A stretch of 64,000 nucleotides of DNA from Alphaproteobacteria bacterium (GTDB lineage: Bacteria; Pseudomonadota; Alphaproteobacteria; GCA-2731375): NCBI GenBank assembly GCA_965238305.1, contig CBDEHK010000001.1:1298391-1362390 (forward strand), read 5' to 3'. Shown one piece after another: positions 7,460-12,848 of this stretch (its first letter is position 1; the number at the start of each line of letters is the position of its first letter). The notes under the pieces are model-generated. The model saw nothing but the letters and a program-made list of their open reading frames with translations. It was not told where the DNA came from and did no database searches. A program made the translations under genes and the position numbers.

Positions 7460-7864
7460 CTACTCTTTATCGGTGGGTTCAAACGCAAGCGAGGCGGAAT
7501 TCATACAATATCGCAGGCCGCTCGGTTGCGGGCCGTCTTCGAAGACATGACCCAAATGGGCATCGCATTTGCTGCACAAAGCTTCGGTGCGGACCATGAA
7601 GTGGGAGCGATCGGTTTCCGTCTCCACATTGTCGCCATCGATTGGGCCCCAAAAGCTAGGCCAACCGGAACCAGACTCGAATTTTGTCTCGGACGAAAAG
7701 AGCGCCTGGCCGCAGCCGATGCAAGAAAAGACGCCGCTTCGTTTTTCGTCGTTCAGCGGTCCCGTAAAAGCCCGTTCGGTGCCTTTTTGCCGGGTAACGT
7801 AATAGGATTCCTCGCTCAATTGCTGGCGCCATTCGGCGTCCGTTTTTTGCACCTTTTCCGTCAT
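7460..7864 (-). CDS. msrB: peptide-methionine (R)-S-oxide reductase
   Basis: Product MTEKVQKTDAEWRQQLSEESYYVTRQKGTERAFTGPLNDEKRSGVFSCIGCGQALFSSETKFESGSGWPSFW...RTEALCSKCDAHLGHVFEDGP..RYC is a typical zinc-binding MsrB with 2x CxxC. Start set at ATG 7864 with RBS AGGAAG. The longer ORF-track start runs into the upstream gene. Confidence 0.9.
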   Translation of the reverse strand: MTEKVQKTDAEWRQQLSEESYYVTRQKGTERAFTGPLNDEKRSGVFSCIGCGQALFSSETKFESGSGWPSFWGPIDGDNVETETDRSHFMVRTEALCSKCDAHLGHVFEDGPQPSGLRYCMNSASLAFEPTDKE

Positions 7865-8580
7865 GATCTTCCTTTCAAGGCCGTTTGGATATTGGCCATT
7901 TGGATATCGATGTCGATATTCATGATCGACGTTATCTCCAGGTCGCGATCTTCGAAGACATGAGTTTCCAGCTTCTTCTCGCGCCAAGCCGCGATCTTAA
8001 TGTCTCTCTCCCGGATCAGCAATTCGATTTGCGGATAAAAAAACGCGACCATGGCCGTAAGCCAGCGATTGGTCGGCCAGGACGGCCAGGCATGGTCGAT
8101 TTGGAAGTGATCCAACAAGGCGATGGTATTGTCGCCAGTGAACCAATTCTCGTCCGTGACCCAGCGATTGGTGGTGAAAAGCTGTTCGGGGAAACCCTTT
8201 TTGTCCATAGAGATCGCAATTAGGTGGCAGACGATGTCATCGCCGCTTGGCCACTCGGTATCACTGTCGTTTTCGACCGGACCGGTAATATCGAGTAACC
8301 CTTCTTCGCGGATGAAGGTGTGGAAATGGCCATGTTCGCCGCTTTCCGGTCGATGCGCATGATAATAATATTGCCCGTGGGTCTCGCTATCATAGACATC
8401 GCCGTCGGGGTAATGATCCCATTCGTAAAACGTCTCGACCCGATTAATCAGTTCGTCGACCACGTTACCACTGATTTTGTGCAGGACGCGGTTGCATTCA
8501 AACACTTCTTCGCCACCCGCCTGCATTTTCCGCAAGCGCCCGGTGGAGAGGTCGGCAAAATTTATCTCACGTGTGGACAT
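7861..8580 (-). CDS. conserved hypothetical protein, His-rich, translationally coupled to msrB
   Basis: 239-aa ORF. Its stop overlaps the msrB start (ATGA). Contains the His-rich stretch YYYHAHRPESGEHGHFHTF. Family not recognised. Confidence 0.5.
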   Translation of the reverse strand: MSTREINFADLSTGRLRKMQAGGEEVFECNRVLHKISGNVVDELINRVETFYEWDHYPDGDVYDSETHGQYYYHAHRPESGEHGHFHTFIREEGLLDITGPVENDSDTEWPSGDDIVCHLIAISMDKKGFPEQLFTTNRWVTDENWFTGDNTIALLDHFQIDHAWPSWPTNRWLTAMVAFFYPQIELLIRERDIKIAAWREKKLETHVFEDRDLEITSIMNIDIDIQMANIQTALKGRS

Positions 8581-8614: not shown

Positions 8615-9487
8615 TTATTCCCGGACCAAGCGAAAGCCGATCAGGATATGTTTCAAATGATCTGGTCGGGAATGATGGGCGGCAGGCCGGCAGACGCCGC
8701 AACCTTTGTCGTCCCACGATCCACCCTTGACGATATGGCGGCCTTTGCCCTTTGCCGTTGCCGTCCATTCAAAAACTTGTCCAGCCGGATCGACAAGACC
8801 GTGTTGGCTGTTGCCTTTGGAGTATTGGCCGACCGGTACTGTATCGAAAGGCCCCATATCGTGGCTGTTGAGCCGGCTTGGATCATATTCATTGCCCCAG
8901 GGGAAGATTTTCCCTTCGTCACCGCGCGCGGCGCGTTCCCAGTCATCCTCGCTTGGTAGGCGCCAGTGATGGCCGGTTCGCCTGGACAACCACGCCGCGT
9001 AGGCCTGAACGTCGTCGAAGGACACCAATACAACCGGATGATCTTCCCGCCCTGCAGGCATCTGGCCATCCAACCAGGCATGCCGGCGGGTCCGCGTAAA
9101 TGGGTGGATCAGGCCATAACTTCGCCAAGTTGCCGAATCGACATTCGGTGTCGGATGGCCGGTTTGGTTGATGAATTCAGCATATTGCCGATTGGTGATG
9201 AGGGTTTGGGTAATCGCATAGGCTTTACCTTGGCGTTCAGATAGGGGCGGTTCGTCTTCGTACCATTTCTGTTGCCGGGTCACGCTATGGCCGTAGGCGG
9301 CTTCATCCAGCATATAGGCCAGTTCTTTTTCGGCGCGGTTTGAACCGATGAAATAGGATCCAGCTGGAATGTGAATAACTTCAGGTGCAGCGAGATCGCT
9401 TGCGAAGGTCGGTTGGCCCACAAATATCGCCGCCAGCACCGGCAAAATACCAATTGTTCCGATTTTACATCTGATTTTCTGCATCAC
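8615..9487 (-). CDS. formylglycine-generating enzyme (FGE/SUMF1) family protein, secreted
   Basis: Signal peptide (MMQKIRCKIGTIGILPVLAAIFVGQPTFA). FGE-sulfatase domain hallmarks are RVIRGGSW-like GGSWDD, HPVVLVSFDDVQAYAAWL, WRLPSEDDWERAARG and FPWGNEY. Confidence 0.8.
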   Translation of the reverse strand: MMQKIRCKIGTIGILPVLAAIFVGQPTFASDLAAPEVIHIPAGSYFIGSNRAEKELAYMLDEAAYGHSVTRQQKWYEDEPPLSERQGKAYAITQTLITNRQYAEFINQTGHPTPNVDSATWRSYGLIHPFTRTRRHAWLDGQMPAGREDHPVVLVSFDDVQAYAAWLSRRTGHHWRLPSEDDWERAARGDEGKIFPWGNEYDPSRLNSHDMGPFDTVPVGQYSKGNSQHGLVDPAGQVFEWTATAKGKGRHIVKGGSWDDKGCGVCRPAAHHSRPDHLKHILIGFRLVRE

Positions 9488-9629
9488 CCTCAGGTAAGTC
9501 GAAAATCCCCAAATAGAAAGGCCAATTGCGTCGAATCACATAATGGTGAGCCATTGTTACTAGTCTCCGTGATCAGAGGCGTCCACATTGGGTCCGGGAA
9601 CATCAACAATCAAATTGAGGAGGCACCTC

Positions 9630-10928
9630 ATGTACGCTCAAAAGAGCAAACTATTATCATCGACAGTCATTCCGTTGGTCGCCGTGGCGGCGTTGTCATC
9701 GGCTGGCGTCATTACCATGGCAAATATCAGTTTCGCGGCCAGCAGCGCGATACCCAACAACCCAACCGCGGTATCACGCCCGGCAACGCCAGACGGATCG
9801 TACCAGGTCGCAGCCTGTACCGCCAAGAAAGCGTGTAATCCGTGCGCGACCAAAAAGAAAGGCTGTAATCCTTGCAACCCCTGTGGGGCAAAAAAAGCCT
9901 GCAACCCATGCAATCCTTGCGCGACCAAGAAAGCCTGCAATCCTTGTAACCCTTGCGGTGCGAAAAAAGCTTGTGGCGCCTGCAATCCATGCAATCCGTG
10001 CGGTGGTGCATCTGCTGCGGGGTTATCACAAAAATGCATGGTGCCGCGGTTGATGAAGGCATCGCTTTGCAATCCTTGCAATCCTTGTGCGGCGAAAAAG
10101 GCCTGCAGTCCTTGCGGCGCAAAAAAAGCCTGCAATCCGTGCGCAACCAAGAAAGCTTGCAATCCTTGCGCAACGAAGAAAGCTTGCAACCCTTGTGCAA
10201 CCAAGAAAGCCTGCGGAGCTTGCAATCCCTGTGGCGCCAAGAAAGCCTGCGGAGCTTGTAATCCTTGCGCAACCAAAAAAGCCTGCAATCCATGCAATCC
10301 CTGTGGCGCCAAGAAAGCTTGTGGAACCTGCAATCCTTGCGCAACCAAAAAAGCCTGCAATCCATGCAATCCCTGTGGCGCCAAGAAAGCTTGCGGAGCC
10401 TGCAGTCCTTGTGGCGGCGCGGCGGCACCTGAATTAACCGCGGCAGAAGCCAATTCGGTTTATGACTGCTTGAAAGCCGATATGGTCAAAGGTTATGCAA
10501 AATCAGGACTGAAAGACGCCAAACATTATGCCGATTGGGACGGTTATTCGACGCAGCCTTATGTTTCCGACACCCATGGCGGCCGCTATGTGTTCAATCG
10601 TGGGAATGCGCAGGCCAAATCTTACGGCAAATATGAAGCGGCCGGCCGCATGCCGGTCGGTGCAAAATTGGCGAAAGACAGCTTTGTCGTCAAAACCAAC
10701 GGTAAAGTGGGCTCCGGGCCGCTCTTTATTATGGAAAAAATGGCCAAGGGCTTCAGTAAGGCAAGCGATAATTGGCGGTACACGATGGTGATGCCGAACG
10801 GTCAATTGTTCGGGATGACCAACGGCAAGAATTCTGCCGGAATGAAATTCTGTTATGAATGCCATGCCACTGTTGCGGAAGGCCAAGATAGTCTGATGTT
10901 CCTACCGGACGATTATCGGGTCAATTAG
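9630..10928 (+). CDS. secreted Cys-repeat protein fused to a cytochrome P460-like c-type haem domain
   Basis: ATG 9630 follows a GAGGAGG RBS. Signal peptide, then about 210 aa of tandem KKACNPC(NPC)(G/A)(A/T) repeats with over 60 Cys, mostly as CxPC pairs. The C-terminal roughly 160 aa carry a single CXXCH (FCYECHAT) near the C-terminus and resemble the cytochrome P460 / c'-beta family. Confidence 0.6.
   Translation: MYAQKSKLLSSTVIPLVAVAALSSAGVITMANISFAASSAIPNNPTAVSRPATPDGSYQVAACTAKKACNPCATKKKGCNPCNPCGAKKACNPCNPCATKKACNPCNPCGAKKACGACNPCNPCGGASAAGLSQKCMVPRLMKASLCNPCNPCAAKKACSPCGAKKACNPCATKKACNPCATKKACNPCATKKACGACNPCGAKKACGACNPCATKKACNPCNPCGAKKACGTCNPCATKKACNPCNPCGAKKACGACSPCGGAAAPELTAAEANSVYDCLKADMVKGYAKSGLKDAKHYADWDGYSTQPYVSDTHGGRYVFNRGNAQAKSYGKYEAAGRMPVGAKLAKDSFVVKTNGKVGSGPLFIMEKMAKGFSKASDNWRYTMVMPNGQLFGMTNGKNSAGMKFCYECHATVAEGQDSLMFLPDDYRVN
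9820..10430. repeat. in-frame coding tandem repeats with 27-nt (AAAGCCTGCAATCCTTGCGCAACCAAG-like) and 36-nt units
   Basis: Near-identical units recur roughly 25 times in the sequence. They cause long spurious stop-free antisense ORFs (9638..10453, 9727..10428, 10087..10437, 9953..10261). Confidence 0.85.
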
Positions 10929-10954
10929 CTCGGCAATCGTTCGCCCCCGAACTT

Positions 10955-10991
10955 GGCGGCAGTCCGATGACTGCCGCCATTTTCTTTTGTT
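10955..10991 (+). terminator. rho-independent terminator after the Cys-repeat/P460 gene
   Basis: GGCGGCAGT-CCGATG-ACTGCCGCC, a perfect 9-bp stem, followed by ATTTTCTTTTGTT. Confidence 0.7.
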
Positions 10992-11042: not shown

Positions 11043-11654
11043 ATGGCGCGGGTCGAGTTTTTCTTTGATTGTTCCAGTCCATGGACCTATCTGGCGTTCC
11101 ACAATTTCGCCGTGATGGCCGATGAATTGGGCCAGGCAGTGGAATGGAAACCGATCCTCGTCGGCGGGATATTCAATACCATCAATCCTTCCGTCTATGT
11201 TTCACGTGAAACACCGGTGCCGGCGAAGGCGCGATATCAGGCTAAGGACATGCAAGACTGGGCCCGCCAAGCTGGAATAAAGATCACCTGGCCGACCACG
11301 GTCTTTCCGGTCAACAGTGTGAAGGCGATGCGGGCTTGTATTGTCGCCGCGCAAAGCGACCGCTTGATGCCTTATGCCCGGGCCGTATTCGAAACCTATT
11401 GGGGGGACGATCGGGACATTAGTCAGGATGACGTGTTGGCCGATATTGCGACAAAATGCGGTTTCGATGCGCTGGAGATGGCTGAGAAAATCCAAACTGA
11501 CGAGATCAAACTGACGTTGCGAGAAAATACCGAGGCGTTGATGCGGCGCGGCGGCTTCGGTTCGCCGACGATTTTCCTTGATCGGGACGATATGTATTTT
11601 GGCAACGACCGCTTGCCCTTGGTGCGGGCGGCTCTGGCACGGGCGGCGGCTTGA
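11043..11654 (+). CDS. 2-hydroxychromene-2-carboxylate isomerase family / DsbA-like thioredoxin-fold protein
   Basis: N-terminal VEFFFDCSSPWTYLAF and overall length (203 aa) match the HCCA-isomerase (kappa-GST/DsbA-like) family. Confidence 0.7.
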   Translation: MARVEFFFDCSSPWTYLAFHNFAVMADELGQAVEWKPILVGGIFNTINPSVYVSRETPVPAKARYQAKDMQDWARQAGIKITWPTTVFPVNSVKAMRACIVAAQSDRLMPYARAVFETYWGDDRDISQDDVLADIATKCGFDALEMAEKIQTDEIKLTLRENTEALMRRGGFGSPTIFLDRDDMYFGNDRLPLVRAALARAAA

Positions 11655-11724
11655 CAGTACCAAACGCAACTGGCTGAATATGCTACCTGCCGATCTCGAT
11701 ATCCCGCGAAAGGAGGCGACTGAG

Positions 11725-12609
11725 ATGGATTATGTCAGTTATATCGACAAGACCCGCGATTATTATCTCTCGCAAGGTTACGACAAACCCTATCAATGGG
11801 CGCAGCATGATCAGGTGCCATTTCAAGCGCTGGAAAAACCGCTCGCTGGGTGCAAACTGGCGCTCCTGACGACCAGCGAACTCGCGATCAAATATGACGA
11901 GGCGACGGAAGAAAATCCTATCACCGAAGAAGGTTTCCGTAGCGTCTATGCCATTCCCGGCGACACTCGAAGCGAACTTTTTTATAGCCGCACCAACAGT
12001 TTTGATCGTTACGCCACCCATCTGGATGACGTGAACAGCTATTTCCCGGTCGATCGCTTGCGCGAAGCGCTGGCGGCCGGCCGCATCGCTGACATCCCAG
12101 AACGCCTTTATGGTGCCTATAATAATTACAGTGTCAAAAAAGTTCTCATCGACGAAGCGCCAAAAGCCCTGGCGATGTGCCGGGAAGACAACGTTGATGC
12201 AGCAATATTGGTCCCGGTCTGACCAGTTTGCCATCAGACCGTGAGTCTGATTGCCCGCTACCTGGAAGAACATGGCATCCCAACCGTGGTGATCGCGACG
12301 GCCCGGGATATTGTTGAAAGCTGCAATGTCCCGCGATTTTTGTTTGTCGATTTTCCCCTTGGTAATCCGTGTGGGGAACCCTTCAATGTGGCGCAGCAGC
12401 GGGAAATCTTCGAAAGTGCGTTAGGTGTGCTGGAAAACGCGACAGAACCCGGTATCACCATCGAAGCCGGCTATCGCTGGAGCCAGGGCGAAGCCTGGAA
12501 AGATAGCATCTTTACCGAAGCGCAACCGTTCCTATCAGGTGAGGCCAAGCAGGCTTGGCTGGATCGCAAAGACAAATACCGCGAGTTGAAACAGAAAGGC
12601 GAGCTTTGA
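11725..12609 (+). CDS. glycine/sarcosine/betaine/proline reductase protein B (GrdB/PrdB)-family selenoprotein candidate with an in-frame UGA (Sec) at 12220..12222
   Basis: Track ORFs 11578..12222 and 12241..12609 are in the same frame and separated only by TGA. Read-through gives ...AAILVPV-U-PVCHQTVSLIARYLEEHGIPTVVIATARDIV..., a UxxC motif. The UGA sits in the 5' arm of a 7-bp hairpin GGTCTGA-CCAGTTTGCCA-TCAGACC (12216..12240). N-terminal MDYVSYIDKTRDYYLSQGYDKPYQWAQHDQVPF resembles the GRDB family. Start set at ATG 11725 after an AGGAGG RBS. Confidence 0.55.
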
Positions 12610-12848
12610 TGGCGGCGGCGGTGATCGTCTATTCGACGCCATTTTGCATCCCGTGCGAACAGCTGAAGCAGTATCTCACCGATCACAATGTCGTCTTCGA
12701 AAGCCGCGACCTGATGATGGACGAAGGCGCGGCGGAACGCTTGGAAGCCTTCGGCATCCGCTCCACCCCGGCCCTGGAAGTGGCCGGTCAAATCTACGCC
12801 GGCGCCACCCTAACCCCGGAAAAAGTGCAGGAATTGCTGGAGCTGTAG
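12608..12848 (+). CDS. glutaredoxin-like small redox protein
   Basis: 80 aa, MAAAVIVYSTPFCIPCEQLKQYL..., with a CxxC (CIPC) active site in a glutaredoxin/NrdH-like context. Its start overlaps the upstream stop (TGATG). Confidence 0.7.

What the first reader, a model, noticed from the sequence alone, without database searches (positions are those of the whole stretch)
9630..10928. Secreted protein with about 35 tandem CNPC/CxxC repeats (about 60 cysteines) fused to a cytochrome P460-like haem domain
After a signal peptide the protein is built from variants of KKAC-NPC-(NPC)-(G/A)(A/T) repeated across about 210 residues. The result is dozens of closely spaced CxPC pairs separated by Lys-rich linkers, with no His (so not multi-haem). 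The C-terminal 160 residues carry a single CXXCH (FCYECHAT) close to the C-terminus and the general pattern of cytochrome P460 / c'-beta proteins. A high-capacity thiolate array that could bind soft metals or polysulfide, tethered to a P460-type haem, is not a described domain architecture. It may represent a new metal-storage/redox or N-oxide detoxification protein.
Basis: partly seen in the sequence, partly recalled or inferred. Interest (0 to 1): 0.85.

Follow-up and report, generated by a model that had tools for sequence, protein, structure and literature searches.

The report
Cysteine-array protein fused to cytochrome P460
A secreted bacterial protein joins about 200 residues of repeated Asn-Pro-Cys units (46 cysteines) to a genuine cytochrome P460 haem domain, and it belongs to a widespread, apparently undescribed gene module whose function is still unknown.

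Summary
ORF 9630-10928 (+) encodes 432 aa: a signal peptide, a 46-Cys array (23 CxPC, about 16 KKAC-led units), then a 167-aa C-terminal domain. That domain is a true cytochrome P460 by Pfam score, a confident AlphaFold model and fold search. An invariant Lys349 aligns with the haem cross-link Lys, and Glu369 aligns with the distal carboxylate.

The architecture is common in marine Alphaproteobacteria, but I found no description of it in the literature searched.

The new result is that the N-P-C array is an independent module. It also occurs as small secreted array-only peptides, on both sides of a SoxA/TsdA-like cytochrome c domain, and fused to an unknown domain. Across these forms it is encoded beside the same partners:
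- DUF6969, a cytoplasmic protein with eight invariant His and no known fold.
- A periplasmic FGE-fold protein with an invariant GCGxC motif.
- Often a cupredoxin-like protein.

In the window, the FGE-like and DUF6969 genes lie divergently upstream of the gene.

My favoured model, held with low confidence, is a periplasmic poly-thiolate binder of soft metals, serviced by these partners and tethered to a catalytic haem. The rival models are a thiol/disulfide relay, a covalent carrier and an enzymatically modified array. I rate it a new variant of a known kind, of high interest.

The parts
9630..10928 (+). Whole gene: 432-aa secreted N-P-C cysteine array fused to cytochrome P460 (stop codon included)
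   Evidence: ORF and translation; 908 homologous clusters, most with the same architecture
9617..9623 (+). Shine-Dalgarno-like GAGGAGG, 6 nt upstream of the ATG
   Evidence: read directly from the sequence
9630..9737 (+). Probable Sec signal peptide, residues 1-36 (K5, K7, hydrophobic core, SFA|AS). The N-terminal motif K-x-K-L-L-S-[ST]-T-V-I-P is conserved across the family
   Evidence: sequence and homologue N-termini; no signal-peptide predictor was available, so the cleavage site is inferred
9816..10001 (+). Cys array, first block (residues 63-124; KKAC-NPC-(NPC)-[GA][AT] units)
10002..10067 (+). Non-repeat island GGASAAGLSQK-C136-MVPRL-MKASL. The C-x-[VI]-P-R-L motif is conserved once per protein
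   Evidence: Present in 101 of 121 family members. Also present directly after the signal peptide in array-less members of the same P460 subfamily. Covaries with the helix Cys
10068..10412 (+). Cys array, second block (residues 147-261)
10425..10925 (+). Cytochrome P460 domain with an extra N-terminal helix (residues 266-432)
   Evidence: PF16694, 30.4 bits, above the cut-off; AF2 pLDDT 90.8; top 15 Foldseek PDB hits are all P460 or c'-beta
10467..10469 (+). Cys280 in the N-terminal helix (YDC), conserved in 117 of 120; probable partner of island Cys136
   Evidence: co-occurrence table 115/65/30/19; the disulfide is inferred
10674..10676 (+). Lys349, invariant, at the haem cross-link position (N. 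europaea Lys70; T. thermophilus c'-beta Phe61)
   Evidence: hhalign against 2je2, hmmsearch against 7ead, Table 2 of PMC11928373, 120 of 120 conserved
10734..10736 (+). Glu369, at the position of the distal proton-accepting carboxylate in the 7ead alignment (Gly82 = NeP460 Glu96)
   Evidence: Glu in 101 of 120; the hhalign alignment to NeP460 places this region differently
10851..10865 (+). Haem c attachment motif C408-Y-E-C411-H412
   Evidence: invariant in the family
10954..10989 (+). Intrinsic terminator (11-bp stem, 8 G-C pairs, T-run) 26 nt after the stop; the gene is monocistronic
9488..9629 (.). Divergent intergenic region between the FGE-like gene and the P460-array gene; no sigma-70-like promoter was detected
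8615..9487 (-). Secreted FGE-sulfatase-fold protein (290 aa) with the invariant motif GGSWDD-x-G-C263-G-x-C266-R-x-AARH; conserved partner gene
   Evidence: PF03781, E=6e-42; next to the P460-array gene in 51 of 80 loci, in several gene orders; also in the SoxA-type array operons; motif conservation; alignment to human FGE
7861..8580 (-). DUF6969 protein (239 aa, no signal peptide, invariant His56/74/76/83/85/87/119/163); conserved partner gene, 34 nt downstream of the FGE-like gene on the same strand
   Evidence: PF22308, E=6e-79; adjacent in 53 of 80 loci; next to SoxA-type arrays; arrays adjacent in 3 of 4 reverse look-ups; invariant residues

Best explanation
SHOWN. The gene encodes an exported protein with three parts.
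- A Sec-type signal peptide.
- An array of about 200 residues made almost only of Ala, Cys, Pro, Asn, Lys and Gly. Its conserved core is N-P-C (mostly C-N-P-C), and it has 46 cysteines.
- A C-terminal cytochrome P460 domain with one c-type haem site. The Lys that cross-links the haem in characterised P460s is invariant, and a Glu sits at the distal-carboxylate position.

The array is an autonomous module. The same repeats occur as small secreted peptides, on both sides of a SoxA/TsdA/CCP-like cytochrome c domain, and on an unrelated domain. All these forms are encoded beside the same partners: DUF6969 (cytoplasmic, His-rich), a periplasmic FGE-fold protein with a CxxC motif, and often a cupredoxin-like protein.

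INFERRED (favoured mechanism). The array has no hydrophobic core, so what its thiols bind must organise it. I propose it is kept reduced in the periplasm and acts as a high-capacity, metallothionein-like binder of soft metal ions, most plausibly Cu(I). The partner proteins would load, mature or recycle it. The tethered low-potential, ligand-binding P460 haem would couple NH2OH/NO chemistry or redox state to the thiolate array, for example by reducing or releasing bound metal, or by consuming reactive N species next to it.

What the protein is made of is well supported. What the array binds and does is a hypothesis.
For: Architecture and P460 identity:
- Basic anatomy.
- Lys349 aligns with NeP460 Lys70 and with TtCP-beta Phe61. 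Both are the cross-link position in Table 2 of PMC11928373. Lys349 is invariant in 120 of 120.
- Glu369 aligns with Gly82, the distal-carboxylate position, and is Glu in 101 of 120.

The array is an independent module:
- 28 array-only ORFs in 27 of 80 related loci.
- Arrays flank a PF21342/PF03150-type cytochrome c domain.
- An array is fused to an unknown domain in P0283.
- Only 25 of 105 full-length representatives of this P460 subfamily carry arrays.

Partner genes:
- The FGE-like gene is adjacent in 51 of 80 loci and DUF6969 in 53 of 80, in at least three gene orders.
- An operon of SoxA-like array protein, FGE-like, DUF6969, cupredoxin-like and array-only peptide occurs in L085-L088.
- Starting from DUF6969, arrays are adjacent in 3 of 4 look-ups.

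Metal-thiolate reading:
- Composition is 20.5% Cys with almost no aromatic, acidic or His residues, as in metallothioneins (established knowledge).
- The Lys linkers are replaced by Glu/Asp in some array-only peptides while N-P-C is kept, so the cysteines matter, not the charge.
- The partners are a cupredoxin-fold protein, a member of the copper-dependent FGE fold carrying a CxxC motif, and a poly-His protein.
- Genes for a TlpA-like redoxin and a DsbD_N protein sit next to one array protein, and AhpC/TSA-redoxin fragments next to another. This fits thiols being kept reduced in the periplasm.
Against: - There is no direct evidence that the array binds any metal.
- No copper-resistance, copper-sensing or metal-transport gene is conserved in the neighbourhood.
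- Known periplasmic copper proteins mostly use Met and His, because Cys is oxidised there (established knowledge).
- The strict conservation of Asn-Pro before Cys, the short conserved hydrophobic segment before each array block, and a dedicated cytoplasmic partner (DUF6969) look more like recognition by an enzyme than like plain metal binding.
- Both identified haem partners belong to catalytic haem families, which fits a redox or covalent-carrier role equally well.
- The cupredoxin-like protein lacks the usual type-1 copper ligands and scores below the Pfam cut-off.
- The distal-carboxylate assignment depends on which alignment is used.
Confidence: 0.4

Rival explanations
1. Thiol/disulfide relay or electron store. 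The CxxC pairs cycle between dithiol and disulfide and exchange reducing equivalents with the tethered low-potential catalytic haem. They act either as an internal reductant for peroxide or NO chemistry, or as a sink for electrons from NH2OH oxidation. Periplasmic thioredoxin-like proteins recharge them.
For: - 29 overlapping CxxC motifs; Cys-Cys spacing of 3 dominates family-wide (2542 cases).
- The fused haem domains come from low-potential catalytic families: P460 at about -400 mV (Table 3 of PMC11928373) and a SoxA/TsdA/CCP-like domain.
- TlpA-like Redoxin and DsbD_N genes lie directly upstream of array protein P0283.
- AhpC/TSA-Redoxin fragments lie upstream of P0243.
- A small class-I cytochrome c lies just downstream of the fusion gene in 10 loci.
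Against: - Some arrays are largely AAK-NPC-AAK-NPC, with Cys spacing of 6 and no CxxC (1010 cases of spacing 6), so the CxxC pair is not the conserved unit.
- Direct haem-to-disulfide electron transfer without a flavin or Fe-S cluster is unusual (established knowledge).
- Redoxin or DsbD genes are not conserved partners in the 80 P460-type loci.
- This model gives no role to DUF6969, the FGE-like protein or the cupredoxin-like protein.
Confidence: 0.2
2. Enzymatically matured array (RiPP-like). DUF6969 in the cytoplasm before export, the FGE-fold protein in the periplasm, or both, chemically convert the N-P-C cysteines. The products could be formylglycine, heterocycles or cross-links, and they create the real functional group, such as a metallophore or a cross-linked material.
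For: - N-P-C is conserved while everything else in the array varies.
- Each array block is preceded by a short conserved hydrophobic-x-x-A-A segment, as in multi-core precursors.
- DUF6969 is adjacent even to a lone 77-87-aa array peptide with no haem protein nearby (L093).
- DUF6969 has 8 invariant His and many invariant Asp, Glu and Arg, like a metalloenzyme, and no DNA-binding fold was detected.
- The FGE-like stop codon overlaps the DUF6969 start codon in L085-L088.
- There is precedent: bufferins are Sec-signal Cys peptides modified before export to bind copper (PMC11626156), and an MNIO enzyme modifies Cys motifs on a whole protein (PMC11252979).
Against: - No enzymatic activity is known for DUF6969.
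- The FGE-like protein lacks the equivalent of catalytic Cys336.
- The arrays do not carry the CxPxR motif, and in many arrays Cys is not followed by x-Pro.
- 27 of 80 loci have neither partner gene within 8 kb.
- Sneathiella litorea keeps DUF6969 away from any array.
Confidence: 0.25
3. Covalent carrier or trap. By analogy with SoxAX-SoxY, the array thiols are the nucleophiles onto which the catalytic haem loads its oxidised substrate: NO+ from the P460 {FeNO}6 intermediate, giving S-nitrosothiols, or sulfane sulfur from the SoxA/TsdA-like domain.
For: - Both identified haem partners belong to families whose mechanism is attack of a nucleophile on a haem-bound or Cys-bound electrophile. For P460, {FeNO}6 is attacked by a second NH2OH (PMC11928373). 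For SoxA/TsdA this is established knowledge.
- The array is tethered on flexible Ala/Lys linkers next to an open, surface-exposed distal pocket.
Against: - The SoxA/TsdA assignment is marginal (27.8 bits against a cut-off of 27).
- 46 acceptor sites per haem is far more than a carrier needs.
- Array-only peptides exist with no haem domain in the neighbourhood (L093).
- No sox, nor or nir genes are nearby.
Confidence: 0.1
4. Inert low-complexity spacer or tether. The array merely spaces or anchors the haem domain in the periplasm and has no chemistry of its own.
For: Repeat number is highly variable (8-59 Cys before the domain). Most members of the same P460 subfamily do without an array (80 of 105).
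Against: - N-P-C is conserved across lineages and across three or more different fusion partners.
- Stand-alone secreted array peptides exist.
- Dedicated co-located partner genes exist.
- Exporting 46 unpaired cysteines into an oxidising compartment is costly for a mere spacer.
Confidence: 0.05

Closest known systems
Cytochrome P460 (N. europaea NeP460, M. capsulatus McP460; PF16694)
   Same: The C-terminal 167 aa have the P460 beta-sheet fold (Foldseek probability 1.0 to 6hiu, 2je2 and 8gar). They have a C-terminal CXXCH, an invariant Lys at the cross-link position, and a Glu at the distal-carboxylate position in one alignment.
   Different: Sequence identity to solved P460s is only 13-18%. 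This subfamily adds an N-terminal helix with a conserved Cys and an upstream C-x-V-P-R-L segment. This protein adds a 46-Cys array. The hosts are marine heterotrophic Alphaproteobacteria, with no amo/hao context. Activity is untested.
Cytochrome c'-beta (McCP-beta, TtCP-beta 7ead, NeCP-beta 7s5o)
   Same: Same fold; 7ead is the best TM-score match (0.55/0.66).
   Different: The c'-beta proteins have Phe or Met in place of the cross-link Lys, and Gly or Ala in place of the carboxylate. This family has Lys and Glu, so it falls on the P460 side.
Metallothioneins and bacterial Cys-rich copper storage proteins (SmtA/BmtA, MymT, Csp1/Csp3)
   Same: Very high Cys content. There are no aromatic or His residues and no hydrophobic core, the linkers are Lys/Ala/Asn/Pro/Gly, and CxxC spacing is common. 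An exported Cys-based Cu(I) store has a precedent in Csp1 (my own knowledge).
   Different: No sequence homology to any Pfam or NCBIfam metallothionein model. The array is much longer and strictly periodic around N-P-C. It is exported by a Sec-type signal, fused to haem domains, and has dedicated partner genes. Metal binding is untested.
Bufferins and other MNIO-modified Cys peptides or proteins (PMC11626156, PMC11252979)
   Same: They are Sec-signal-bearing Cys-containing precursors encoded beside proteins that long carried only DUF names, and they end up in the periplasm. In bufferins the modified Cys bind copper.
   Different: No MNIO (DUF692) or DUF2063 gene is present in the clusters. The partners here are DUF6969 and an FGE-fold protein. 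The substrate would be tens of repeats on a full-size haem protein. No modification has been shown.
Formylglycine-generating enzyme and other FGE-fold proteins (NirV, PvdO, EgtB C-domain) - for the neighbour gene
   Same: PF03781 fold. It is periplasmic, like PvdO and NirV. NirV similarly accompanies an N-oxide enzyme, NirK, in many Alphaproteobacteria (PMC4770552). The residue equivalent to FGE Cys341 is kept.
   Different: FGE Cys336 falls in a two-residue deletion, and a new invariant Cys lies 3 residues after the first, giving GCGxC. The protein is far below every NCBIfam equivalog cut-off. The arrays lack the CxPxR motif.
SoxAX-SoxY (haem-catalysed loading of a carrier cysteine)
   Same: A c-type haem domain works beside flexible Cys-bearing segments. 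A second array family is fused to a SoxA/TsdA-like cytochrome c domain.
   Different: SoxY carries one Cys on a folded protein. No sox genes are nearby, and the Pfam match is marginal.

Membership tests
Cytochrome P460 family (PF16694) | P460 / c'-beta beta-sheet fold and profile match | tested here: met
   PF16694, E=5.6e-7, 30.4 bits against a cut-off of 27 for the domain alone; AF2 pLDDT 90.8; top 15 Foldseek PDB hits are all P460 or c'-beta, probability 0.99-1.0
Cytochrome P460 family (PF16694) | Single C-terminal CXXCH haem c attachment motif | tested here: met
   C408-Y-E-C411-H412, invariant in 120 of 120 homologues
Cytochrome P460 proper (as opposed to c'-beta) | Lys at the haem cross-link position (NeP460 Lys70) | tested here: met
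   Lys349 aligns with Lys70 (hhalign) and with TtCP-beta Phe61 (Table 2 of PMC11928373); invariant in 120 of 120
Cytochrome P460 proper (as opposed to c'-beta) | The Lys-haem covalent cross-link and the 440-460 nm Soret band actually form | not testable with these tools
   Needs expression, UV-visible spectroscopy and mass spectrometry
NH2OH-oxidising P460 subclass | Distal proton-accepting carboxylate (NeP460 Glu96, McP460 Asp102) | tested here: inconclusive
   Glu369 aligns with TtCP-beta Gly82, the equivalent position, and is Glu in 101 of 120. The hhalign alignment to NeP460 instead puts Glu96 in a gap
Multi-haem cytochrome c | Several CXXCH motifs | tested here: not met
   One CXXCH; no His anywhere in the array
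Metallothionein (any described family) | Sequence membership in a described metallothionein family | tested here: not met
   No Pfam or NCBIfam model matches the array. The only marginal hits are compositional: Mst87F at E=0.013, and precomputed zf-CXXC and Cornifin hits
Metallothionein (functional class) | Cys-rich, free of aromatic and His residues, no hydrophobic core | tested here: met
   Array composition is A 23%, C 20.5%, P 14%, N 12%, K 11%, G 7%; aromatic residues and His are each at most 0.2%
Metallothionein (functional class) | Stoichiometric binding of soft metal ions through thiolate clusters | not testable with these tools
   Needs ICP-MS and metal titration
Formylglycine-generating enzyme (neighbour gene 8615-9487) | FGE-sulfatase fold | tested here: met
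   PF03781, E=6e-42; PDB relatives are ToxD, CalU17, SUMF2, PvdO and FGE
Formylglycine-generating enzyme (neighbour gene 8615-9487) | Both copper-binding catalytic cysteines (human Cys336 and Cys341) | tested here: not met
   Cys263 aligns with Cys341. Cys336 falls in a two-residue gap. The second invariant Cys266 aligns with Tyr344 (human sequence verified). The alignment is short and of low probability
Formylglycine-generating enzyme (neighbour gene 8615-9487) | Substrate carries C-x-P-x-R | tested here: not met
   The arrays are C-N-P-C-[AGN] with no Arg at +4. In L020-type arrays most Cys are followed by A-A-K. The C-x-V-P-R-L island belongs to the P460 subfamily and shows no association with FGE adjacency
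Bufferin-type RiPP (MNIO-dependent) | MNIO (DUF692) enzyme and its partner in the gene cluster | tested here: not met
   The only strongly recurrent neighbour families in the 80 loci are DUF6969 and the FGE-like protein (the clustering placed them in 59 and 36 of 81 sources). The next families - ABC-transporter ATPase, glutamine-synthetase-like, SNase-like, cupredoxin-like, cytochrome c - each occur in 10-15. No MNIO gene was seen
Bufferin-type RiPP (MNIO-dependent) | Cys-containing precursor with a Sec signal peptide | tested here: met
   Array-only peptides with signal peptides

The most novel reading that the evidence does not exclude
The N-P-C arrays are substrates of a previously unrecognised maturation system. 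DUF6969, a cytoplasmic poly-His metalloenzyme with no known fold, and the periplasmic GCGxC FGE-fold protein would convert or load tens of cysteines per chain. This would create protein-borne metallophore or redox groups on small secreted peptides and on catalytic c-type cytochromes (P460 and SoxA/TsdA-like). That would be a new class of post-translational modification and a new way of coupling haem catalysis to a thiol-derived array, widespread in marine Alphaproteobacteria.
Probability: 0.25. Interest if true: 0.9.

Novelty: new variant of a known kind. Interest (0 to 1): 0.78.

Why it matters
Cytochrome P460 is studied as a source of N2O and NO in nitrifiers and methanotrophs. Here a P460 that has the cross-link Lys (and probably the distal carboxylate) turns up in hundreds of marine heterotrophic Alphaproteobacteria, welded to one of the densest cysteine arrays seen in a bacterial exported protein. 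The same array is reused on other haem domains and as free peptides, always with two uncharacterised protein families.

If the array binds copper or another soft metal, this is a new periplasmic metal-buffering system linked to nitrogen-oxide chemistry. If the array is enzymatically modified, this is a new modification pathway, and it would give DUF6969 and a large FGE-like clade their first function. Either way, the module gives a concrete and testable entry point. Isolates that carry it exist, for example Aestuariispira insulae CECT 8488 and Sneathiella species.

Tried and rejected
1. Whole-protein Pfam and NCBIfam scans gave nothing, because the low-complexity array masks the domain. Scanning the C-terminal 167 aa alone worked.
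2. Plain phmmer of the domain against PDB found no P460. A profile, hhalign and fold search were needed.
3. Idea: the mid-array island C-x-[VI]-P-R-L is a shifted FGE recognition site (CxPxR). Rejected. It shows no significant association with an adjacent FGE-like gene (44/21/7/8). It also occurs right after the signal peptide in array-less members of the same P460 subfamily, and it covaries with the helix Cys280, which suggests a disulfide pair.
4. Idea: the neighbour gene is a canonical FGE that makes formylglycine on C-N-P. Not supported, because Cys336 is absent, Arg at +4 is absent, and many arrays lack C-x-P.
6. Literature: 'cytochrome P460' with 'cysteine-rich' gave 0 papers. DUF6969/PF22308 gave 0 papers. 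CNPC and NPCNPC strings gave only unrelated acronyms. FGE with RiPP gave nothing relevant.
7. Identifying the source genome failed. The exact window proteins are not on record, probably because gene callers chose different start codons. Only DUF6969 is present as P0121, on a 4.9-Mb contig.
8. Multi-haem reading: rejected, because there is one CXXCH and no His in the array.
9. A polycation role (Lys-rich linkers binding an anionic polymer) is unlikely, because array-only variants use Glu/Asp linkers while keeping N-P-C.
10. A search of the rest of the window for a cupredoxin-like gene, an array-only ORF, or amo/hao/nir/nor/cop genes found none.
Full report
**1. The observation**

The ORF runs from the ATG at 9630, six bases after GAGGAGG, to the stop at 10926-10928 and encodes 432 aa.
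- Residues 1-36 look like a Sec signal peptide: Lys5, Lys7, a hydrophobic core, then SFA|AS.
- Residues 63-261 hold 46 of the 49 cysteines. They form about 16 units of the type KKAC-NPC-(NPC)-[GA][AT], with 21 CNPC, 23 CxPC and 29 overlapping CxxC.
- The three His residues (299, 316, 412) all lie outside the array.
- A single CXXCH motif (CYECH, 408-412) sits 21 residues from the C-terminus.
- Tandem Repeats Finder sees periods of 27, 36 and 72 nt across 9837-10416.
- A strong intrinsic terminator follows at 10954-10979, so the gene is monocistronic.

Everything else in the description holds.

**2. The C-terminal domain is a real cytochrome P460**

The whole protein matches no Pfam or NCBIfam model. 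The last 167 aa alone match PF16694 above the curated cut-off (E=5.6e-7, 30.4 bits against 27). An AlphaFold2 model built on 23 homologues is confident (pLDDT 90.8). Its top 15 Foldseek hits in the PDB are all cytochromes P460 or c'-beta (6hiu, 9hrk, 2je2, 7ead, 8gar, 7s5o and the AL212 variants), with probability 0.99-1.0 and TM-scores of 0.41-0.66.

Key residues:
- I recalled the N. europaea P460 sequence from memory and checked it against 2je2. Profile-profile alignment to it pairs the family's Lys349 with the cross-link Lys70.
- An independent profile alignment to T. thermophilus c'-beta (7ead) pairs the same Lys with Phe61, and Glu369 with Gly82.
- Table 2 of the 2025 review lists those two positions as the cross-link and distal-carboxylate positions (PMC11928373).
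- Across 120 homologues, Lys349 is invariant and Glu369 is present in 101. His316, Arg319, Asn323, Lys370, Trp382 and Asp420 are also invariant.

The domain is therefore predicted to be a Lys-cross-linked P460. It probably belongs to the carboxylate-bearing class, which is the class that oxidises NH2OH. The hhalign alignment treats the carboxylate region differently, so I call that feature inconclusive.

**3. How common it is, and where**

- The full-length query finds 908 clusters at 90% identity. Of the best 120, 119 have the same layout (8-59 Cys ahead of the domain and one C-terminal CXXCH; one lacks the CXXCH). Most are unnamed or labelled 'cytochrome P460 family protein'.
- A scan of one genome per species found at least 482 matching stretches. 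The best 80 all come from Alphaproteobacteria or unclassified Proteobacteria, mostly marine MAGs (Rhodospirillales, Kiloniellaceae, Sneathiella, Anderseniella, Hyphomicrobiales, Hoeflea), plus the isolate Aestuariispira insulae CECT 8488.
- An exhaustive profile search with the domain finds 170 representatives at 50% identity with E at or below 1e-30. Of 105 full-length ones, 80 have no N-P-C unit and 25 carry arrays. The array is therefore an add-on within a broader P460 subfamily.

**4. The mid-array island**

A non-repeat segment (S-x-K-C-x-[VI]-P-R-L-x-x-A-A; Cys136 here) occurs once per protein in 101 of 121 family members. I first suspected it was a shifted FGE motif. Three results argue against that:
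- It is not associated with an adjacent FGE-like gene.
- It sits directly after the signal peptide in array-less subfamily members.
- It covaries with the conserved helix Cys280 (co-occurrence table 115/65/30/19).

I infer that the island belongs to the P460 subfamily and probably forms a disulfide with Cys280. In that case the second array block is an insertion between the island and the domain.

**5. The array is an autonomous module**

In 27 of the 80 related loci there are additional ORFs that consist only of a signal peptide and an N-P-C array. A few of these may be fusion genes split by assembly errors. Examples:
- L020 9316-9606.
- An acidic variant in L049 (...ACNPCEACNPCESSLDE...).
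- One in the isolate genome (L079 7433-7903).

In L020 the unit is AAK-NPC-AAK-NPC-NPC, so the invariant core is Asn-Pro-Cys rather than CxxC.

Searching with the array alone finds 960 clusters. Besides the P460 fusions, these include:
- Many 265-345-aa proteins with arrays on both sides of a mono-haem domain. That domain matches the SoxA/TsdA cytochrome c model (27.8 bits against 27) or the CCP/MauG haem-binding region (26.1 bits against 25.6).
- An array fused to an unknown non-haem domain (P0283).
- Array-only proteins.

No Pfam model covers the array.

**6. Conserved partner genes**

In the window, two genes lie divergently upstream of the fusion gene:
- A secreted FGE-sulfatase-fold protein at 8615-9487, minus strand (PF03781, E=6e-42).
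- A DUF6969 protein at 7861-8580, minus strand, 34 nt downstream of it (PF22308, E=6e-79).

Among the 80 loci, the FGE-like gene is adjacent in 51 and DUF6969 in 53. They occur in at least three gene orders: divergent, co-directional, and with DUF6969 downstream. No other neighbour comes close in frequency: by the all-against-all clustering, DUF6969 and the FGE-like protein fall in 59 and 36 of 81 sources, and the next families each in at most 15.

The same partners accompany the SoxA-like array proteins. L085-L088 carry the operon array-cytochrome, FGE-like, DUF6969 (its start codon overlaps the FGE-like stop codon), cupredoxin-like protein, array-only peptide. L084 has the same operon without the FGE-like gene.

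Starting instead from DUF6969 proteins, arrays are adjacent in three of four look-ups. One of these (L093) has only a lone 77-87-aa array peptide. The exception is Sneathiella litorea, where DUF6969 sits beside a cytochrome c.

Other recurrent items:
- A cupredoxin-like secreted protein in 12 of 80 loci and in the five SoxA-type loci that also carry DUF6969 (L084-L088); it is below the Pfam cut-off and lacks type-1 copper ligands.
- A small class-I cytochrome c just downstream of the fusion gene in 10 loci.
- Stand-alone P460 paralogues.
- TlpA-like redoxin and DsbD_N genes next to P0283, and AhpC/TSA-redoxin fragments next to P0243.

**7. What the partners are**

The FGE-like family:
- All members have signal peptides and an invariant C-terminal motif, GGSWDD-x-GCG-x-CR-x-AARH.
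- Aligned to human FGE (C-terminus verified), Cys263 matches catalytic Cys341. Cys336 falls in a two-residue deletion, and Cys266 matches Tyr344.
- The closest solved relatives are ToxD, CalU17, SUMF2, OvsA and PvdO. Every NCBIfam equivalog score is far below its cut-off.
- It is therefore an FGE-fold protein but not a canonical FGE.

DUF6969:
- It has no signal peptide.
- It has eight invariant His plus many invariant acidic and basic residues.
- No paper in the library mentions it.

**8. Mechanism**

Shown: the anatomy, the independence of the array, and the partner set.

Inferred: the array has 20% Cys and essentially no hydrophobic, aromatic, acidic or His residues, so it cannot fold by itself. 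Its thiols must bind something, pair with each other, or be modified.

I favour a reduced poly-thiolate that binds soft metal ions (Cu(I) first), like a metallothionein, with the P460 haem tethered to it (confidence about 0.4). The reasons:
- The composition resembles metallothioneins.
- The cysteines and N-P-C are conserved, but the linker charge is not.
- The partners have a copper or metal flavour.
- Reductant-pathway genes sit next to some array proteins.

The weaknesses are the lack of any direct metal evidence, the lack of conserved metal-homeostasis neighbours, and features that point to enzyme recognition.

Rival models:
- An enzymatically matured, RiPP-like array (0.25). The conceptual precedents are bufferins and MNIO-modified proteins, but no MNIO gene is present here.
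- A thiol/disulfide relay exchanging electrons with the low-potential haem (0.2).
- A SoxY-like covalent carrier or trap for haem-generated electrophiles (0.1).
- An inert spacer (0.05).

**9. Novelty and verdict**

The P460 domain is a new, divergent member of a known family. The fusion, the N-P-C array as a reusable module, and its DUF6969 / FGE-like / cupredoxin-like gene set are not described in any source I could search.

I rate it a new variant of a known kind. There is a substantial chance (about 0.25) that it hides a categorically new modification system. The rest of the window carries ordinary heterotroph genes and no nitrification, denitrification or copper genes. Interest: 0.78.

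Noticed in passing
window 11683-12609 (+), TGA at 12220-12222: An in-frame TGA joins two ORFs into one reading frame: ...AAILVPV-U-PVCHQTVSLIARYLEEHGIPTVVIA... This gives a U-x-x-C motif. A small hairpin (CAGAC-CGTGA-GTCTG) lies a few bases after the TGA. The N-terminal part hits PF07355 (GrdB). This is a probable GrdB/PrdB-like selenoprotein, followed by a glutaredoxin ORF at 12555-12848.
   Followed up: partly
L020 9316-9606; L049 5562-6041; L079 7433-7903; L093 5122-5382; L084 10604-10927; L085 9315-9623: Small secreted peptides that consist only of a signal peptide and N-P-C arrays (Lys-rich or Asp/Glu-rich variants). They lie in the same clusters as DUF6969, the FGE-like gene and the haem-array genes.
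   Followed up: yes
P0242, P0243, P0249, P0258, P0263, P0264, P0330; loci L082-L088: A second family carries N-P-C arrays on both sides of a mono-haem SoxA/TsdA/CCP-like cytochrome c domain (LACxSCH, YPHxVAMPxQMAGV, EMxQFCxxVPMQS). One member is labelled Gammaproteobacteria. It has the same partner genes.
   Followed up: yes
L020 6394-6999; L084 9951-10523; L085 8722-9225 (absent from the window): A conserved secreted protein of about 165 aa with a cupredoxin-like C-terminus (below the Pfam cut-off) and three conserved Cys (TGCQF, DC, SCPLNPTP), but no type-1 copper ligands. It recurs in the array clusters.
   Followed up: partly
L089 4860-6735: An array protein with an unknown non-haem C-terminal domain (P0283) sits directly after genes for a TlpA-like Redoxin and a DsbD_N-domain protein. 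This hints that the arrays are kept reduced in the periplasm.
   Followed up: no
window 9638-10453 (-) and 9727-10428 (-); L092 8403-9170 (-): The repeat DNA creates long spurious ORFs on the opposite strand (271 aa and 233 aa in the window). In L092 the public gene call split the fusion into a 148-aa P460 protein plus a 255-aa opposite-strand protein. Automated annotation therefore under-reports this architecture.
   Followed up: partly
P0002 (70% identical homologue): The precomputed annotation lists PF27959.1 for this one homologue. That Pfam family is newer than the local Pfam copy, so I could not identify it. A few arrays also draw compositional hits to zf-CXXC (PF02008), Cornifin (PF02389) and Mst87F.
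   Followed up: no
L045 4838-5356; L054 5454-5942; L066 8001-8489 and 14192-14674; L019 7286-7846: Stand-alone P460 paralogues of the same subfamily, without arrays, sit next to the array-P460 gene in several genomes.
   Followed up: partly
L088 1869-3067: An ECF sigma factor and a DUF3379 gene lie divergently upstream of one SoxA-type array operon. They may regulate the module.
   Followed up: no
window 11043-11654 (+): A DSBA-like thioredoxin-fold protein without a signal peptide lies just downstream of the P460-array gene. A homologue lies somewhere within the 8-kb flank in only 9 of 80 loci, and only two of these (L004, L005; 62-63% identity, about 150 nt after the fusion gene's stop) look like orthologues; the rest are about 30% identical and farther away. 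Together with the selenoprotein and the glutaredoxin, this makes a local cluster of thiol-redox genes.
   Followed up: partly
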